From NCBI GenBank assembly GCA_021432655.1, contig MU271455.1, positions 1 to 57,139 of the forward strand: 57,139 nt of DNA. Direction: 5' to 3'. A program made the translations under genes and the position numbers. Source of the DNA: Atractiella rhizophila (Eukaryota). This document shows, piece by piece, positions 15,729 to 21,152 of the stretch; the first letter of the stretch is position 1; each line of letters starts with the position of its first letter. The notes under the pieces were generated by a model. That model was given only the letters and a program-made list of their open reading frames with translations. It did not search any database and had not been told where the DNA came from.

Positions 15729-18700
15729 ATGGCTAGCATCCCTAAGCAAACTCAAATACTCGTCGTTGGTGGTGGACCATGTCTGTCCTCTGGTTTACTG
15801 ATTGTTGCTACTGGCTGACCATCACATAGCTGGGAGCTATTCTGCTGGAGTTTTGGCTCGTGAAGGTTTTGATGTCGTGTTGCTTGAATCCACTAAGCAT
15901 CCCAGGTACGCCATTCTGACGCTACTTCAATCCTGACACGTCCCTTACGCGAATAGATATCATATTGGAGAATCTCTCTTGCCCTCAGTGAGGCTCACTT
16001 TGTCTCCTCTGTTCTGGGTTAAAATGATTCTGATGCTGCTTGAGATCAGGTGAGACCTCATCTGAGGTTCTTTGGGGTGGAGGAGAAGGTCCGTGACCAT
16101 GGATTCACTCAGAAGGTGCGAGGGATTTCAGATCGGGAATTCAGATTGACCTGCCATTGTAGCCCGGAGCCGTTGCCCACTTCGTGAAGGACCTGCCCCC
16201 TGCTTACACCAATTTCATAGAAGAGTCCAAGGATAATGGTGTTTGGAAGTATGTGCCTCTGTTCACGCGTCTGGCTGTTCCTGGATTAATGTGTACTCAT
16301 TTTACAGCGTCGAGCGAGCCCAATTCGACGAGATCCTTCTCCGCCAGGCTCAAGCTTTGGGAGCCAAGGTTTTCGAAGATGTCAAGGTCACAGAGCTCAC
16401 CTTTGACAAAGAAAATCCTGCAAAGCCGGTTTCCGCTACTTACACCAAGAAGGGGGATACTACCGCTCAAACGATTACTTTCGACTACTTGGTTGATGCC
16501 AGTGGTCGCTTCGGTTAGCATTCTAGATTTTTGGGGTATATGCCTTTGCTAACCTAATTTTGGAGGTCTCATGAGCACGAAGTATTTGAAGAACCGAAGG
16601 TTCCTCGACTCTTTGAAGAATTACGCCAACTGGGCCTATTTTGAGGGACAAAACGCATACGCGCCGGGTATGAACTTGCCATTCTTGCTGTCAAGTGCAG
16701 CGCTGATGTGATAGTAGGGACTGATCGTGAGAATGCACCTTACTTCCAATCGCTGGCGGATGGAACGGGATGGGTCTGGTTCATCCCTCTGCAAGGAAAG
16801 GTCTCTGTAGGACTGGTCCAGAATGAAGTTGCTTTCAAGAAGATACGAAAAGAATTTGCCAGCACGGAAGAATATTACACCGCAGGCCTCAAAGGGGCTC
16901 CTCAAGTAATGGAACTTTTGGGTACCGCTACTCGAATCGCGAGCGAGCCTCTGAGATCTGCTAGCGACTTTTCGTACGTCAAGCTTTGCATAAAGTCTGA
17001 GAGGCTGATATTCTATATAGGTACGACAGCGATCAAAAAGCTGGGCCAAACTTCGTGTGGTTGGAGATGCTGCCTGTTTCATCGGTACGTTTCCTTCGAC
17101 CATCAACCTTGTTGCGGTATAATAACATGTTTATTAGATCCCCTGTTTTCATCCGGTGTACACATGGTGTGTACTCAATTTTTTGTCCCATTAAATATTG
17201 TCTGCGGCCAAACTGTACATGTTCTCATTACTGTCACGTCACAGGCGTTGACAGGAGGTTTGAGTGCGGCTACTACAATAGCTGCTTCTATCAGGAAGAA
17301 TTGTACCGAAGAACAGGCTGCCAAATATCACGACAAGAAGGTAAGATCTGCATTGGTCCTGTCCATTTATTGGGATCTGAGCCTGATGGTTAGGTCTCCA
17401 CTGCTTTCGCCCGATTCCTCATCGTCGTTCTTGGTGTATACGTCCAGATCAAGCGACAGGATGTGCGCGTCACGGCAACCGAGGTATGTAAATCCTGCGT
17501 CTGGAACGGACTTCTGATGCTCGCCTTAGAGTTACCAACCTGCCATTGACATGATCAAACCTGTCATTCAAGGGAAAGTCGATGTTCGAACTGGCGATGG
17601 GTTCAAAGCCAAGTACCAGAGCACATACGCGGCGACTGAGGCGCCGACTTACGAAAAGATTGTTCAAAGCAAGACCTATTCCTCTCTCCCAGTTGAGAAT
17701 GAGGGGTACAACTTGGCTGATAAGGCTTCGAATACTCCATCGTACGCTAATAACCCCAGCTACGCCTCCGTCCCCTCTAGCGATTACAAATCTGCGACTC
17801 AGGCCGCCACCGAAGGGTACAAGACGGCGGATGACGCATCGAAGGTTCCATCCTATGCTCAAAATCCCAGCTATGCTGCCGTCCCCTCGAGTGATTACAA
17901 GGTGGCGACGGAAGCTGCCCGCGAAGGCTACAAGGTTGCCAGTGAAGTTTCGAAAGCTCCATCCTATGCCAAGAACCCTAGCTACGCCTCGCTTCCTTCA
18001 AGCGATTACAAGCTGGCGACTGAAGCAGCGAAGGAGGGATACCAAGCGGCGAACGCTGCGAGTGAAGGGTACAAACTGGCCGATAAAGCGTCGAAGGCTC
18101 CATCCTATGGTCAAAACCCGAGCTACTCCTCTCTCCCTTCGAGTGACTACAAGCTCGCGAATGCTGCGGGCGAGGGGTACAAACTGGCTGACAAGGCTGC
18201 AAGCTCCCCATCCTACGCTCAGAACCCCAGCTACGCTGCCCTCCCTTCGAGTGACTACAAGTTGGCGACTCAAGCTACGAGCGAGGGATACAAGTCCGCG
18301 AATGCTGCGAGCGAGGGGTATAAGCTGGCCGATAAAGCTGCAACGGCTCCGTCCTATGCCAAGAATCCCAGCTATGCCTCTCTTCCCGCGAGCGACTACA
18401 AGCTTGCGACTGAAGCTGCGACCGAAGGATACAAGGCGGCGAATGCTGCCAGCGAAGGGTACAAGCTTGCGGATAAGGCTTCGACTGCTCCATCCTACTC
18501 TCAGAACCCCACTTACGCTTCCCTTCCCTCGAGCGATTACAAGCTTGCGACTGAAGCTGCGACCGAAGGATACAAGTCCGCTAATGCCGCGAGCGAGGGA
18601 TACAAGCTAGCGGATAAAGCGTCGACAGCTCCGTCCTATGCTCAGAATCCCAGCTACGCTGCCCTCCCTTCGAGTGACTACAAGTTGGCGACTCAAGCTA

Positions 18701-21152
18701 CGAGCGAGGGATACAAGTCCGCGAATGCTGCGAGCGAGGGGTATAAGCTGGCCGATAAAGCTGCAACGGCTCCGTCCTATGCTCAGAACCCCAGCTATGC
18801 CTCTCTTCCCGTGAGCGACTACAAGCTTGCGACTGAAGCTGCGAGCGAGGGATACAAGTCCGCGAACTCTGCGAGTGAGGGTTACAAACTAGCCGATAAA
18901 GCGTCGACAGCTCCGTCCTATGCCAAGAATCCCAGCTATGCCTCTCTTCCCGCGAGCGACTACAAACTTGCGACTCAAGCTGCAAGCGAGGGATATAAGG
19001 CGGCAAATGCTGCGAGCGAAGGGTACAAGCTGGCGGATAAGGCTTCGAAGACTCCTTCCTACGCCCAGAATCCCAGTTACTCTGCTCTTCCCTCAAGCGA
19101 CTACAAGCTGGCGAATTCCGCTAGCGAAGGGTACAAGCTGGCTGATAAAGCATCGAAAGCGCCATCGTACGCTCAAAACCCCAGCTATGCTGTTCTTCCT
19201 TCGAGTGATTACAAGTTGGCGACTGAAGCTGCTACTGAGGGATACAAGGCGGTGAACGCTGCAAGCGAAGGTTACAAGCTAGCGGATAAGGCTTCGACTG
19301 CTCCGTCCTACTCTCAGAACCCCACTTATGCTTCCCTTCCATCGAGCGATTACAAGCTTGCGACCGAAGCTGCGAGCGAGGGATACAAGTCCGCGAACTC
19401 TGCGAGGAGGGTTACAACTAGCGATAAGCTCGACGCTCGTCCTAGCAAGAACCCAGTATGCTCCTTCCGCGAGCGATACAAGCTGCAACTCAAGCTGCAA
19501 GCGAGGGATAAAGCGGCAATGTGCGAGCGAAGGGTACAATCTAGCGGATAAAGCTTCGAAGGCTCCATCCTACGCCCAGAATCCCAGTTACGCTGCCCTT
19601 CCCGCGAGCGACTACAAGCTGGCGAATTCCGCTAGCGAAGGGTACAAGCTGGCCGATAAAGCGTCGACGACCCCATCTTATGCCCAAAATCCAAGCTATG
19701 CCGCCCTTCCCGTGAGCGACTACAAGTTGGCGACTGAAGCTGCTACTGAGGGATACAAGGCGGTGAGCGCTGCAAGCGAAGGTTACAAGCTAGCGGATAA
19801 GGCTTCGACTGCTCCATCCTACTCTCAGAACCCCACTTACGCTTCTCTTCCATCGAGCGATTACAAGCTTGCGACCGAAGCTGCGAGCGAGGGATACAAG
19901 TCCGCTAACGTTGCGAGCGAAGGGTACGATTTAGCGGATAAAGCTTCGAAGGCTCCATCCTACGCCCAGAATCCCAGTTACGCTGCCCTTCCTTCGAGCG
20001 ACTACAAACTTGCGACTGAAGCTGCGACCGAAGGATGCAAGGCGGCGAATGCTGCCAGCGAAGGGTACAAGCTTGCGGATAAGGCTTCGACTGCTCCGTC
20101 CTATGCCAACAATCCCAGCTACGCCTCTCTTCCCGCGAGCGATTACAAGCTTGCGACTGAAGCCGCGAGCGTGGGTTACAAGTCCGCTAATGCCGCGAGT
20201 GAGGGATACAAGCTAGCGGATAAAGCGTCGACTGCTCCGTCCTATGCTCAGAACCCCAGCTATAATTCCCTCCCCACTGCCAACAAGGGGTACGAAGCTA
20301 TCACAACCGTTGCAGACAAGAGTCCTTCCAGCTACGACCAAGCTTTGAAGGCGGGCTCTCCCTCATATTCTTCGGTGACGCTTGTCGCGGAGAATATTCC
20401 GGGTAGTTATGACAAGGCGGTGAAAGCCAGTTACCAGACTGCCACTGAGGCATCCAAGGAAGCACCGTCTTACTCGTCCTATAAAACCGCAACAGAAGCC
20501 ACGAAGGAGGTTCCCAGCTACGCTCAGACTGGCTATGCGTCTGCAACGGACGCAGCGAAGGGATATCAGGTCGCTCAATCCGCCACGGACGCGCCGTCCT
20601 ATTCCTCGTACAAAGATGCGACGGAAGCTGTGACAGAAGCCCCAGGATACCAAAAGGTCAACAACTCCTACAGTTCCGTCCCTGCTGGACCAGGTTACGA
20701 AAACTATAAACTGGCGACTGACGTGGCGAAGCCAAATCCTTTGAGCTATAGCGATGCCAAAAAGGCTACATACGAGACTCCTCGTCAATTGGGATACTCC
20801 GATGCTCCTTCTTATAAGGATACGGGATTGGATAAAGAAATCGCTGGATCTATCGGATTTTCTTACTGTGCGTCCTTCACGTCTTGAACTCTGTTCTTCG
20901 TCGCCGGCTGATCAATGACGCTTGTAGCTGTTTTCATGGACAAGAAGTTCTCTGACGATTTTGGAGATAAGCTAAAAGCAGAGCAAGAAATCCTAGGGTG
21001 CGTCTAACATTCTATCTTTTTTTCATGTGTTGAGAATTTGGCATGCCAGACGCCTGAAGCAATCCATCGACGACTACGTTAAGGACTCTATCGAAGGATT
21101 CTCTGTCCGCCTCCAGCCTGGCAACTTGGGATTGATCCCGATTGTGGCTTGA
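15729..21152 (+). CDS. Flavin-dependent halogenase (fungal Rdc2/RadH-type) carrying a ~1,070-aa Tyr-rich tandem-repeat insert in its C-terminal subdomain
   Basis: Spliced motifs: '[12 protein letters not shown]' (FAD binding), '[13 protein letters not shown]', 'GFTQKPGA' (catalytic Lys position), 'YLVDASGR', 'GWVWFIPL' (WxWxIP), '[17 protein letters not shown]' and '[10 protein letters not shown]'. After the repeats comes the typical terminus '[17 protein letters not shown]', joined by introns 20868-20927 and 20998-21049. There is one apparent frameshift zone at ~19400-19530. Confidence 0.88.
17686..20290 (+). repeat. Coding tandem array of ~20 units (mostly 141 bp/47 aa; 36-37 aa variants), consensus [47 protein letters not shown]
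   Basis: Read directly from ORFs 17551..19551 and 19328..20887. I counted 20 NP[ST]Y-ending units, including one garbled unit. Variation between units is mostly synonymous. Confidence 0.95.

What the first reader, a model, noticed from the sequence alone, without database searches (positions are those of the whole stretch)
15729..21152. Flavin-dependent halogenase fused in cis to ~20 Tyr-rich tandem repeats: candidate self-halogenating enzyme-precursor (borosin-like RiPP logic)
Seen: the halogenase core is complete (GxGxxG, catalytic-Lys motif [29 protein letters not shown]). It splices in frame (intron 17484-17529) into '[19 protein letters not shown]'. About 1,070 aa of repeats follow, then '[11 protein letters not shown]' and the normal fungal-halogenase terminus '[17 protein letters not shown]'. 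So the array is an insert inside one polypeptide, not a neighbouring gene. Each 47-aa unit carries five regularly spaced Tyr, and Tyr is the only aromatic residue in the array. Established: Rdc2/RadH-type halogenases are about 500-550 aa, chlorinate phenols, and use the C-terminal region for substrate binding. Fungal borosins are enzymes fused to their own, sometimes repeated, core peptides. Inference: the tethered Tyr (phenol) repeats may be the substrate, giving halotyrosine peptides or protein. I do not know of a described halogenase-precursor fusion in fungi.
Basis: partly seen in the sequence, partly recalled or inferred. Interest (0 to 1): 0.92.

Follow-up and report, generated by a model that had tools for sequence, protein, structure and literature searches.

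The report
Halogenase gene with nested tyrosine repeats
A root-fungus gene encodes a chlorinating-type flavin enzyme interrupted by about twenty tyrosine-rich repeats, is transcribed as one message, and may be an enzyme that carries its own substrate, though that function is untested.

Summary
The anatomy is real. The window matches Atractiella rhizophila. RNA contigs from two runs splice 13 listed GT..AG introns (a 14th shows in contig pieces). They join the halogenase exons to 728-749 nt of the repeat exon, and join the repeat tail to the two C-terminal halogenase exons. The public model stops at 405 aa because it reads through intron 17484-17529.

The product would be about 1,557 aa. It is a RadH-type flavin halogenase with all catalytic motifs and an insert of about 1,080 aa in a C-terminal linker. 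The insert has 111 Tyr in 1,037 readable residues and no Trp, His or Met. Its repeats are under purifying selection, with pN/pS 0.16.

All four runs add a base at 17052. Unit 19407-19528 carries 16 one-base deletions against 2 substitutions.

The repeats occur only in this genome, in at least two loci plus decayed copies. No long homologue has such an insert. The neighbours are housekeeping genes.

Self-halogenation of the tethered Tyr is plausible (about 0.4) but untested. Release as RiPP peptides is less likely (about 0.12).

The parts
15729..21152 (+). Whole coding region: 15 exons and 14 GT..AG introns. The product would be about 1,557 aa once the two frame breaks are allowed for.
   Evidence: Exon and intron coordinates were checked. 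Thirteen joints are listed in RNA contigs of X4 and X15, and the 14th (16668-16717) shows in the pieces of X4 record 23.
15729..17483 (+). Exons 1-12: the flavin-dependent halogenase core (FAD-binding and halogenase fold), 385 aa.
   Evidence: Annotated protein P0001 is 100% identical and carries PF04820 and PF01494. The exon 16720-16977 matches RadH 8gu0 at E 2e-9.
15768..15780 (+). First part of the GxGxxG motif (GGGPSG), completed at 15830-15834 after intron 1.
16113..16115 (+). Codon of the catalytic Lys (GFTQKPG), equivalent to RadH K74.
   Evidence: The role of K74 is taken from PMC10377541, section 3.5.
16771..16788 (+). WxWxIP motif (WVWFIP).
17052..17053 (+). Site of a missing base in the window, which causes a frameshift in the core. 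All four laid runs have an extra A here, which restores ...AGPNYRVVGD...
   Evidence: table 4: depth with the extra base equals total depth in each run (X1 693.3/693.3, X2 1119.7/1119.7, X4 17.5/17.5, X15 23.3/23.3). Paralogue P0002 has the intact reading.
17063..17166 (+). [16 protein letters not shown] (Fx.Px.Sx.G region, with the equivalents of RadH D325 and F328). It is split by intron 17085-17137.
17484..17529 (+). Intron 12 (46 nt, GT..AG). The public gene models read through it and stop.
   Evidence: joint 17481>17528 (cut +2) in X4 and X15. P0001 and P0002 end in the read-through peptide.
17530..17589 (+). Start of exon 13. It encodes the conserved C-terminal-domain segment with the KPVIQG motif, up to DVR.
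   Evidence: It aligns with P0003 residues 410-429 and RadH residues 408-416.
17590..17700 (+). Non-repeat Tyr-rich lead-in: 37 aa with 4 Tyr and the only Phe of the insert.
17701..20263 (+). Tandem array of 18 intact core units plus one corrupted unit. DNA periods are 108 and 141 nt, with higher-order periods of 249, 282 and 423 nt.
19407..19528 (+). Corrupted unit that shifts the frame. It is a copy of unit 18847-18987 with 16 one-base deletions and 2 mismatches. It is probably an assembly or gap-fill error.
   Evidence: Read depth in the two bins that hold it falls to 12 and 73 in X1 (hundreds elsewhere) and to 0 in the first of these bins in X15.
20264..20827 (+). Degenerate Tyr-rich tail of the insert: 188 aa with 20 Tyr and still no Phe, Trp or His.
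   Evidence: Its last ~50 aa are shared with the short-form copies P0009 and P0051.
20828..20867 (+). Return to halogenase C-terminal-domain sequence ([13 protein letters not shown]), equivalent to EEISKAIDFSF of P0003 and KEVSEAIDFA of RadH.
20928..20997 (+). Exon 14, part of the C-terminal domain.
   Evidence: joints 20867>20928 and 20996>21049 in X4 record 26 and X15 record 14.
21050..21152 (+). Exon 15. It encodes the conserved halogenase terminus (…[16 protein letters not shown]…) and the stop codon.
   Evidence: tblastn of P0003 residues 519-548 matches 21054-21143 at 50% identity, E 1.5e-4.

Best explanation
This is one gene and one mRNA of Atractiella rhizophila. It encodes a RadH/Rdc2-type FADH2-dependent phenol halogenase of about 1,557 aa. 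A short linker in its C-terminal domain (RadH residues ~417-427) has been replaced by an insert of about 1,080 aa. The insert is probably disordered, is rich in Tyr, Ala, Ser, Lys and Pro, and grew by tandem amplification of a short Tyr-rich segment.

Most likely mechanism (inferred, not shown): the core makes the Lys-bound chlorinating or brominating species as in other flavin halogenases. The phenol rings of the tethered Tyr then enter the active-site opening and are halogenated ortho to the hydroxyl. They could come from the same chain or from a neighbouring molecule. The product would be a polypeptide bearing halotyrosine. Whether that polypeptide is later cut into peptides or stays intact is open.

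Shown here:
- the gene structure;
- transcription and splicing at both junctions;
- intact catalytic motifs;
- purifying selection on the repeats.

Inferred:
- that the protein is made at full length;
- that the enzyme is active;
- that the repeats are its substrate.

My confidence in the anatomy is about 0.9. The figure of 0.4 below is for the substrate mechanism.
For: 1. **One transcript.** X4 record 23 (1,851 nt) runs from 16308 through the spliced exons to 17528-18255. X15 record 10 (1,212 nt) covers 16789-16973 and 17528-18276. X4 record 26 (1,008 nt) covers 20243-20867 and 21049-21365 across joints 20867>20928 and 20996>21049, and X15 record 14 does the same. No listed joint skips the array.
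2. **Catalytic equipment kept.** GxGxxG, the catalytic Lys, WxWxIP and FIDPLFSSG with the equivalents of RadH K74, D325 and F328 are all present. The essential roles of those residues are stated in PMC10377541, section 3.5.
3. **Position of the insert.** It sits in the C-terminal domain. In RadH that domain lies in the groove next to the active-site entry, where a carrier protein docks on CndH (PMC10377541, section 3.5). From my own knowledge, the carrier-bound substrate of CndH is tyrosine-derived.
4. **The repeats are coding and selected.** pN/pS is 0.158 against 1.5 and 2.6 in the other frames. The four Tyr columns are invariant in 18 of 18 units, and both Tyr codons are used in three of the four.
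5. **Tyr density survives decay of the repeat pattern.** The tail has 20 Tyr in 188 aa and the lead-in has 4 in 37.
6. **Tyr is the only recurrent aromatic residue.** There are 111 Tyr in 1,037 aa, nearly always preceded by Ser, Gly, Asp or Thr.
7. **No small-molecule pathway nearby.** A Pfam scan of 67 ORFs across the window found only housekeeping families. There was no PKS, NRPS or terpene synthase.
8. **A second locus has the same pairing.** P0002 and the repeat-bearing model P0049 lie on one 292,180-nt contig with neighbouring accession numbers.
Against: - No data here show a halogenated Tyr, or even that the full-length protein is made.
- By name, the PDB entry is RadH. The RadH paper tests small phenols and heterocycles (abstract and section 3.5).
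- In the passages I saw of the peptide-halogenation review PMC12615548, Tyr halogenation concerns NRPS-bound substrates, not ribosomal chains.
- Tyr invariance is not unique. Twelve of the 29 non-Tyr columns are invariant too. The chance that all four Tyr columns fall among the 16 invariant columns of 33 is 0.044.
- A homologue model from Amylostereum (P0045) has large Pro/Ser-rich inserts without Tyr, one of them in the C-terminal region. Such loops may simply tolerate disordered inserts.
- The C-terminal part after the insert is about 70 aa, against about 107 aa in P0003. The lid may therefore be altered.
- RNA contigs do not bridge 18276-20243. That stretch is covered only by short pieces.
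- The window's own letters break the frame twice.
Confidence: 0.4

Rival explanations
1. The insert is a functional disordered or weakly helical domain that is not the substrate. It could act as a scaffold, as Tyr 'stickers' for self-association or condensates, or as a localisation or solubility module. The enzyme would then halogenate small phenolic metabolites, as RadH and Rdc2 do.
For: - Purifying selection acts on many residues besides Tyr: 16 of 33 columns are invariant.
- Tyr is evenly spaced, every 6-12 residues, in a near-neutral polyampholyte (96 Lys+Arg against 105 Asp+Glu).
- AlphaFold2 of four units gives no confident fold. Mean pLDDT is 48.6, with ~32-aa helices alternating with Pro-rich coil.
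- Homologues are known or annotated as small-molecule halogenases.
- Fungal halogenases need not be clustered with their pathway (my knowledge).
Against: - No relative of the repeats exists outside this genome to suggest a known domain function. There were 7 hits at E<=0.001 among 1.84 billion representatives. Four are Atractiella copies and three are weak matches to unrelated repeat proteins.
- This reading does not explain why the only aromatic residue is exactly the chemical group that this enzyme clade attacks, or why the insert sits beside the active-site entry.
Confidence: 0.35
2. The array is a neutral or selfish expansion of a tandem repeat in a tolerant surface loop and has no function of its own.
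For: - The higher-order periods of 249-423 nt show recent block duplications.
- Short-form copies without the array exist (P0009, P0051).
- Another basidiomycete homologue model carries large low-complexity inserts (P0045).
Against: - pN/pS of 0.158 among units is not expected for unconstrained sequence.
- Synonymous codon variation sits under invariant residues.
- A 3.3-kb frame is kept open and returns in phase to the halogenase terminus, apart from the one suspect unit.
Confidence: 0.1
3. The locus is a decaying pseudogene. On this view the frameshifts at 17052 and 19407-19528 are real, and the transcript is non-productive.
For: - The window's letters contain both breaks.
- The genome holds several clearly decayed copies, P0009, P0048 and P0051, with frameshifts and Tyr-to-Cys changes.
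Against: - All contigs of all four runs carry the extra base at 17052.
- The second break is 16 one-base deletions against 2 substitutions, which is a pattern of sequencing error rather than of mutation. Read depth collapses there in X1, and it is 0 in the first of the two bins in X15.
- The array downstream of the break and both C-terminal exons stay open, and the two C-terminal exons are correctly spliced in RNA.
- The 18 units compared include 5 downstream of the break.
Confidence: 0.07

Closest known systems
RadH / Rdc2-type fungal flavin-dependent phenol halogenases (PDB 8gu0)
   Same: The fold family, all catalytic motifs and the conserved C-terminal segments are shared. Normal-length paralogue P0003 matches RadH at E 8.9e-110 over residues 24-456. 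The window's exon 16720-16977 matches at E 2e-9.
   Different: Those enzymes are about 520-550 aa. Here about 1,080 aa of Tyr-rich repeats replace the ~10-17-residue linker after the PVIQG motif. From that motif to GxLGL is about 1,150 aa here. In 34 of the 35 long homologues that have both motifs it is 109-115 aa. The segment after the insert is also shorter.
Borosin precursors (OphMA-type self-modifying N-methyltransferases)
   Same: The logic of an enzyme domain and its peptide substrate in one fungal polypeptide. This is known from passages of PMC11253845 and the abstract of PMC7878506.
   Different: The chemistry and fold differ (SAM methyltransferase against FAD halogenase). The borosin core lies at the C-terminus, not nested inside a domain. 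Self-modification is unproven here.
Fused (autocatalytic) burpitide cyclases of plants
   Same: An enzyme domain in one protein with its core peptides, which react in cis. Multi-core precursors occur among burpitides such as lyciumins and moroidins (passages of PMC11253845). That their cross-links run through aromatic side chains is from my own knowledge.
   Different: Those are copper BURP domains, secreted, and from plants. Their cores lie outside the enzyme domain. No BURP domain is present here.
CndH-type 'variant B' halogenases acting on carrier-protein-tethered substrates
   Same: A halogenase that takes a substrate presented on a protein beside the active-site entry. CndH is the closest structural relative of RadH (PMC10377541, section 3.5).
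   Different: There the substrate hangs on a separate carrier protein through a thioester. Here it would be Tyr side chains of the enzyme's own chain.
Halogenase-O-methyltransferase bifunctional proteins
   Same: These are long fungal halogenase fusions, and they make up most of the 38 long homologues found.
   Different: They carry a folded second enzyme appended after the intact C-terminus, not a repeat array nested within it.
Dikaritin-type multi-core precursors (ustiloxin, phomopsin)
   Same: Fungal proteins with many tandem Tyr-containing core repeats (passage of PMC11253845, and my own knowledge).
   Different: Those are small secreted precursors with Kex2 KR sites between cores and separate tailoring enzymes. 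Here there are 0 KR sites in 1,037 aa, and there is no room for a signal peptide before the GxGxxG motif at residues 14-19.

Membership tests
Flavin-dependent halogenase, RadH/Rdc2 type (Pfam PF04820) | N-terminal GxGxxG FAD-binding motif | tested here: met
   GGGPSG lies at residues 14-19 and spans intron 1.
Flavin-dependent halogenase, RadH/Rdc2 type (Pfam PF04820) | Catalytic Lys (RadH K74) | tested here: met
   GFTQKPG, with the Lys codon at 16113-16115. In P0003 the Lys aligns to RadH K74.
Flavin-dependent halogenase, RadH/Rdc2 type (Pfam PF04820) | WxWxIP motif | tested here: met
   WVWFIP at 16771-16788.
Flavin-dependent halogenase, RadH/Rdc2 type (Pfam PF04820) | Fx.Px.Sx.G motif, including the equivalents of RadH D325 and F328 | tested here: met
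   FIDPLFSSG. The upstream frame is intact only with the extra base that all four runs show at 17052.
Flavin-dependent halogenase, RadH/Rdc2 type (Pfam PF04820) | Significant sequence similarity to characterised members over the core and the C-terminal segments | tested here: met
Flavin-dependent halogenase, RadH/Rdc2 type (Pfam PF04820) | Halogenating activity that depends on FADH2, O2 and halide | not testable with these tools
   This needs an enzyme assay.
Autocatalytic (fused) RiPP precursor, borosin- or burpitide-like logic | Enzyme domain and repeated peptide segment encoded in one ORF and one mRNA | tested here: met
   Spliced RNA contigs bridge both junctions. The middle of the array is covered only by short pieces.
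Autocatalytic (fused) RiPP precursor, borosin- or burpitide-like logic | The enzyme modifies its own peptide segment | not testable with these tools
   This needs mass spectrometry of native or recombinant protein.
Autocatalytic (fused) RiPP precursor, borosin- or burpitide-like logic | Modified cores are released by proteolysis | tested here: inconclusive
   There are no KR, RR or RK sites and only one KK in 1,037 aa. No peptidase family appeared among the 67 ORFs scanned in the window. Cleavage after Pro or Lys cannot be excluded.
Borosin family proper | SAM-dependent alpha-N-methyltransferase domain | tested here: not met
   The enzyme part is an FAD halogenase. It is therefore not a borosin. 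Only the logic is shared.
Burpitide family proper | BURP domain | tested here: not met
   No BURP match appeared in the Pfam scans. The precomputed Pfam domains of P0001 are only FAD and halogenase families.
Dikaritin-type multi-core precursor | Signal peptide plus Kex2 (KR) sites between the cores | tested here: not met
   There are 0 KR sites. The N-terminus runs straight into the Rossmann motif.

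The most novel reading that the evidence does not exclude
The protein is a self-sacrificing halogenase precursor and the first flavin halogenase that carries its own ribosomal substrate. 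It chlorinates or brominates about 110 Tyr in its nested repeats. Proteolysis then frees about 20 near-identical halotyrosine peptides, which would found a third, independent class of autocatalytic RiPP pathway after borosins and burpitides. Alternatively the halogenated chain stays whole as a halotyrosine-rich polymer.
Probability: 0.12. Interest if true: 0.92.

Novelty: new variant of a known kind. Interest (0 to 1): 0.7.

Why it matters
If the tethered Tyr are the substrate, this would be a natural enzyme that halogenates Tyr in a ribosomal polypeptide. In the passages I saw of one review, Tyr halogenation was discussed only for NRPS-bound substrates. That the known peptide-modifying flavin halogenases act on Trp is from my own knowledge. 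Such an enzyme would be a new tool for protein and peptide halogenation. It would also be a third independent origin of enzyme-substrate fusion.

The case has a practical lesson whatever the function. The public gene models stop at 400-405 aa because they read through a 46-nt intron. As a result a 1,557-aa architecture is missing from protein databases, and searches of 5.8 and 1.84 billion proteins found only its fragments.

The hypothesis can be tested directly with one expression construct and mass spectrometry.

Tried and rejected
- **Whole genome.** None is held for this window. I could not read the DNA of the second locus or of the decayed copies.
- **First PDB query.** It used wrong coordinates and failed on stop codons. 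I repeated it with the right exon.
- **ESM Atlas on the repeats.** The best score was 0.81 with low recognition, which gives no lead.
- **Pfam on the repeats.** DUF4881 scored 47 bits and cREC_REC 29 bits in the first piece. In the second piece, two DUF4881 stretches passed the loose E<=10 cut-off, and each matches only ~24 profile positions. I read these as weak matches summed over repeats and rejected them as spurious.
- **Earlier findings of this scan.** Nothing by sequence or by place.
- **Variants seen in reads inside the array.** There were 7 synonymous and 8 non-synonymous changes, and none touched Tyr. They are not informative, because at 90% likeness contigs of other units or copies may be laid there.
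- **Amphipathic 11-mer (LEA- or perilipin-like) idea.** I dropped it because the sub-repeat period is 10 residues (reading).
- **The corrupted unit as an intron.** No joint is listed between 19400 and 19530. However, one joint and 22 indel rows were not shown, so this is not excluded.
- **Cover of 18276-20243 by RNA.** Only short pieces are listed, and I draw no conclusion from the holes.
- **AlphaFold2 of P0003 with 24 sequences.** The core is confident, but residues 398-524 score below pLDDT 50. The geometry of the insert site relative to the active site could not be read.
- **Complex prediction.** I did not run it.
I did not use them as evidence.

Full report
**What is in the sequence**

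Stop-to-stop ORFs and Tandem Repeats Finder show a 3.3-kb open, repetitive stretch on the + strand between about 17530 and 20887. Its DNA periods are 108 and 141 nt, with higher-order periods of 249, 282 and 423 nt. G+C is 53-57% there, against 45-50% in the flanks.

Upstream lie short exons that read as a flavin-dependent halogenase. The 86-aa exon 16720-16977 matches the fungal halogenase RadH (PDB 8gu0) at E 2e-9. A search for longer proteins with that exon gave 8 hits among 138 candidates:
- P0001 (405 aa) is 100% identical.
- P0002 (400 aa, another contig) is 99% identical.
- P0003 (552 aa, normal length) is 66% identical.

All three are annotated in Atractiella rhizophila. Both short models end in a peptide that arises from reading through 17484-17529, so the public annotation lacks the repeats.

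**Gene model and transcripts**

I laid the contigs of four public runs on 15400-21500. Two runs (X1, X2) behave as genomic DNA. They cover introns and show no spliced joints. Several X1 pieces are identical to the window, for example 258 nt at 16486-16743.

Two runs (X4, X15) hold spliced RNA. Thirteen GT..AG joints are listed in both. A fourteenth intron (16668-16717) is visible in the consecutive pieces of X4 record 23. With these joints the gene has 15 exons and 14 GT..AG introns.

The contigs that matter most are these:
- X4 record 23 (1,851 nt) runs from 16308 through the spliced exons into 17528-18255.
- X15 record 10 (1,212 nt) covers 16789-16973 and 17528-18276.
- At the other end, X4 record 26 (1,008 nt) covers 20243-20867 and 21049-21365 across the two last introns. 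X15 record 14 does the same.

The halogenase exons are therefore spliced in frame into the repeat exon, and the repeat tail is spliced to the halogenase C-terminal exons. X4 record 23 has no mismatch over 16308-16512 and 16565-16666, where P0002 differs from the window's protein. The transcript therefore comes from this locus and not from the paralogue.

Between 18276 and 20243 only short RNA pieces are listed. No listed joint skips the array, but one joint was not shown.

**Two frame breaks**

1. The window lacks a base after 17052. It reads ...AGPNF and then shifts, whereas P0002 has AGPNYRVVGD. In all four runs every contig at that place carries an extra A (table 4). That base restores the P0002 reading. 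The public model P0001 avoids the break with another acceptor, which gives an odd eight-residue stretch.
2. Unit 19407-19528 moves the frame from 1 to 2. Aligned to unit 18847-18987 it shows 16 one-base deletions and only 2 mismatches. This is a pattern of uncorrected reads, not of mutation. Depth in the two bins that hold it falls to 12 and 73 in X1, against hundreds elsewhere. In X15 it is 0 in the first of these bins.

The window also has two N gaps, so it is a scaffolded assembly. I read both breaks as record errors. The first is well supported. The second is probable but not settled.

**Where the insert sits**

P0003 aligns to RadH over residues 24-456 at E 8.9e-110. After the conserved PVIQG motif, RadH and P0003 have a short, poorly aligned linker (RadH about 417-427). 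The segment KEVSEAIDFA (RadH) or EEISKAIDFSF (P0003) follows.

The window has [11 protein letters not shown], then about 1,080 aa, then [13 protein letters not shown]. Two further exons end in a terminus that is 50% identical to P0003 residues 519-548.

The distance from the IQG motif to GxLGL compares as follows:
- about 1,150 aa in the window;
- 108-123 aa in the three normal-length relatives that have both motifs;
- 109-115 aa in 34 of the 35 long homologues that have both motifs;
- 369 aa in one Amylostereum model (P0045), which carries Pro/Ser-rich inserts, not Tyr-rich ones, at other sites.

Most of the 38 long homologues are halogenase-O-methyltransferase fusions.

An AlphaFold2 model of P0003 is confident for the core. 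It scores below pLDDT 50 for residues 398-524. In that model the insert site falls in coil between two helices.

The RadH structure paper (PMC10377541, section 3.5, read in full) makes three points that bear on this:
- K74, D325 and F328 are essential.
- CndH, which acts only on carrier-bound substrates, is the closest structural relative of RadH.
- The RadH C-terminal domain lies in the groove next to the active-site entry, where the carrier protein is thought to dock on CndH.

The window keeps the equivalents of all three residues.

**The repeats**

There are 18 intact core units plus the corrupted one. Most units carry a 10-residue extension, which makes the 47-aa unit with five Tyr.

- *Conservation.* In the 33-codon core, 16 columns are invariant, and these include all four Tyr columns. 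Three of the four Tyr columns use both TAC and TAT. The chance that all four Tyr columns fall among the 16 invariant ones is 0.044, so this alone is weak evidence.
- *Selection.* Over all 153 unit pairs, pS is 0.582 and pN is 0.092. pN/pS is therefore 0.158, against 1.5 and 2.6 in the other two frames. The array is coding and under purifying selection.
- *Composition.* The readable insert of 1,037 aa has 219 Ala, 164 Ser, 111 Tyr (10.7%), 94 Lys and 72 Pro. It has no Trp, His or Met, one Phe, one Cys and two Arg. There are no KR, RR or RK sites and one KK.
- *Flanks.* The degenerate tail keeps 20 Tyr in 188 aa, and the lead-in has 4 in 37.
- *Fold.* AlphaFold2 of four units gives mean pLDDT 48.6. 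Helices of about 32 residues (pLDDT 50-56) alternate with Pro-rich coil. This fits disorder or conditional helices.

**Relatives of the repeats**

A word-indexed search of 5.8 billion proteins found one hit, P0009. A full HMMER search of 1.84 billion representatives found seven hits at E<=0.001.

- Four are A. rhizophila proteins: P0048, P0049, P0051 and P0009.
- Three are weak matches (E 5e-5 to 9e-4, 23-24% identity). The two I read are unrelated repeat proteins.
- P0049, a repeat-bearing fragment, lies on the same 292,180-nt contig as P0002 and has the neighbouring accession number. A second halogenase-plus-array locus therefore exists.
- P0048 is a decayed copy with a halogenase fragment and repeats.
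- P0009 and P0051 carry a short form in which the lead-in joins directly to the last ~50 residues of the tail. That form has about 62 aa with 8 Tyr. Its ...[18 protein letters not shown]... segment aligns with the core unit's ...[16 protein letters not shown]....

The array therefore looks like an amplification of a pre-existing Tyr-rich linker, although a deletion in the short forms cannot be excluded. Pfam and the ESM Atlas gave nothing credible for the repeats.

**Surroundings**

A Pfam scan of 67 ORFs across the window found these families:
- upstream: amidase, cation efflux, condensin Cnd1 and Sec62;
- downstream: Rap1, glyoxalase II, Kelch, UDP-glucose dehydrogenase, Cox11, Tim17, Sec2 and NUDIX.

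There is no PKS, NRPS, terpene synthase, peptidase, tyrosinase or flavin reductase. The GxGxxG motif starts at residue 14, which leaves no room for a signal peptide. I therefore infer a cytosolic protein.

**Interpretation**

The anatomy is secure at about 0.9. It is one gene and one mRNA, with an intact RadH-type halogenase core and a selected Tyr-rich insert nested in the C-terminal domain.

For function I favour, at about 0.4, that the Tyr side chains are substrates presented in cis or between molecules. The reasons are:
- Tyr is the only recurrent aromatic residue, and it is the very group that this enzyme clade attacks.
- The insert hangs from the domain that sits where carrier proteins present substrates to the closest structural relative.
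- Tyr density persists where the repeat pattern has decayed.
- No small-molecule pathway is nearby.

Against this:
- There is no chemical evidence.
- Many non-Tyr residues are conserved as well.
- Homologues appear to tolerate other disordered inserts.
- The segment after the insert is shorter than usual.

The alternatives rank as follows:
- a non-substrate role for the domain is nearly as likely (0.35);
- neutral expansion (0.1) is weakened by the selection and read data;
- pseudogene decay (0.07) is weakened in the same way;
- release of the units as RiPP peptides is a sub-case at about 0.12, because there are no recognisable processing sites and the array is nested rather than terminal.

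**Comparison and novelty**

By membership this is a flavin-dependent halogenase of the RadH/Rdc2 type, and all sequence criteria are met. It is not a borosin, a burpitide or a dikaritin precursor, because their defining domains or sites were tested and not met. It could work like the autocatalytic, fused RiPP pathways described for borosins and burpitides (passages of PMC11253845).

Five literature searches found no paper that describes a halogenase fused to a repeat or precursor, or any halogenase in Atractiella. Subscription journals and supplements were not searched.

I rate this a new variant of a known kind, with interest 0.7.

Noticed in passing
window 5928-9440 (- strand gene): There is a ~1.86-kb direct duplication inside the condensin Cnd1 gene region. 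Segment 5928-6152 repeats at 7810-8034 (98%), and 6393-6692 repeats at 8252-8551 (97%). Two equal 283-aa ORFs (6733-7581 and 8592-9440) both match Cnd1. It could be a real tandem duplication or an assembly artefact.
   Followed up: partly
window 23044-23118 and 48167-48305: There are two runs of N, of 75 and 139 bases, so the record is a scaffold with gaps. This fits the local error patches seen in the halogenase gene.
   Followed up: no
window 16974-17322: Besides the missing base at 17052, the window differs from every X1 contig laid here at 16982, 17151 and 17178. This suggests a locally poor consensus.
   Followed up: partly
window 17702 (loose ends in runs X1 and X2): One contig in each DNA run follows the window up to 17702, the first base of the first repeat unit. 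It then continues into unrelated A+T-rich sequence (table 7). This is probably another copy of the gene family that lacks or has lost the array at that point.
   Followed up: no
proteins P0009, P0048, P0051 (other contigs of the same genome): These are chimeric or decayed gene models that hold fragments of this halogenase-repeat gene. With P0001 and P0002, the family therefore stands on at least five contigs, and several copies are pseudogene-like.
   Followed up: partly
protein P0046 (ENA metagenome, 1,169 aa): Among the long homologues, one protein combines halogenase-type FAD domains with a YcaO domain (PF02624). This is a possible halogenase fused to a RiPP-type enzyme in a metagenomic contig.
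   Followed up: no
protein P0045 (Amylostereum chailletii, 1,037 aa): This halogenase model has two large Pro/Ser-rich inserts, one of them internally duplicated, within the core and the C-terminal region. They are either true disordered inserts or unspliced introns.
   Followed up: no
window 21826-25649 (+): Directly downstream lies a Rap1-like gene (Myb_Rap1 and Rap1_C matches) with a long Lys/Glu/Arg-rich low-complexity N-terminal part. One of the N gaps interrupts it.
   Followed up: no
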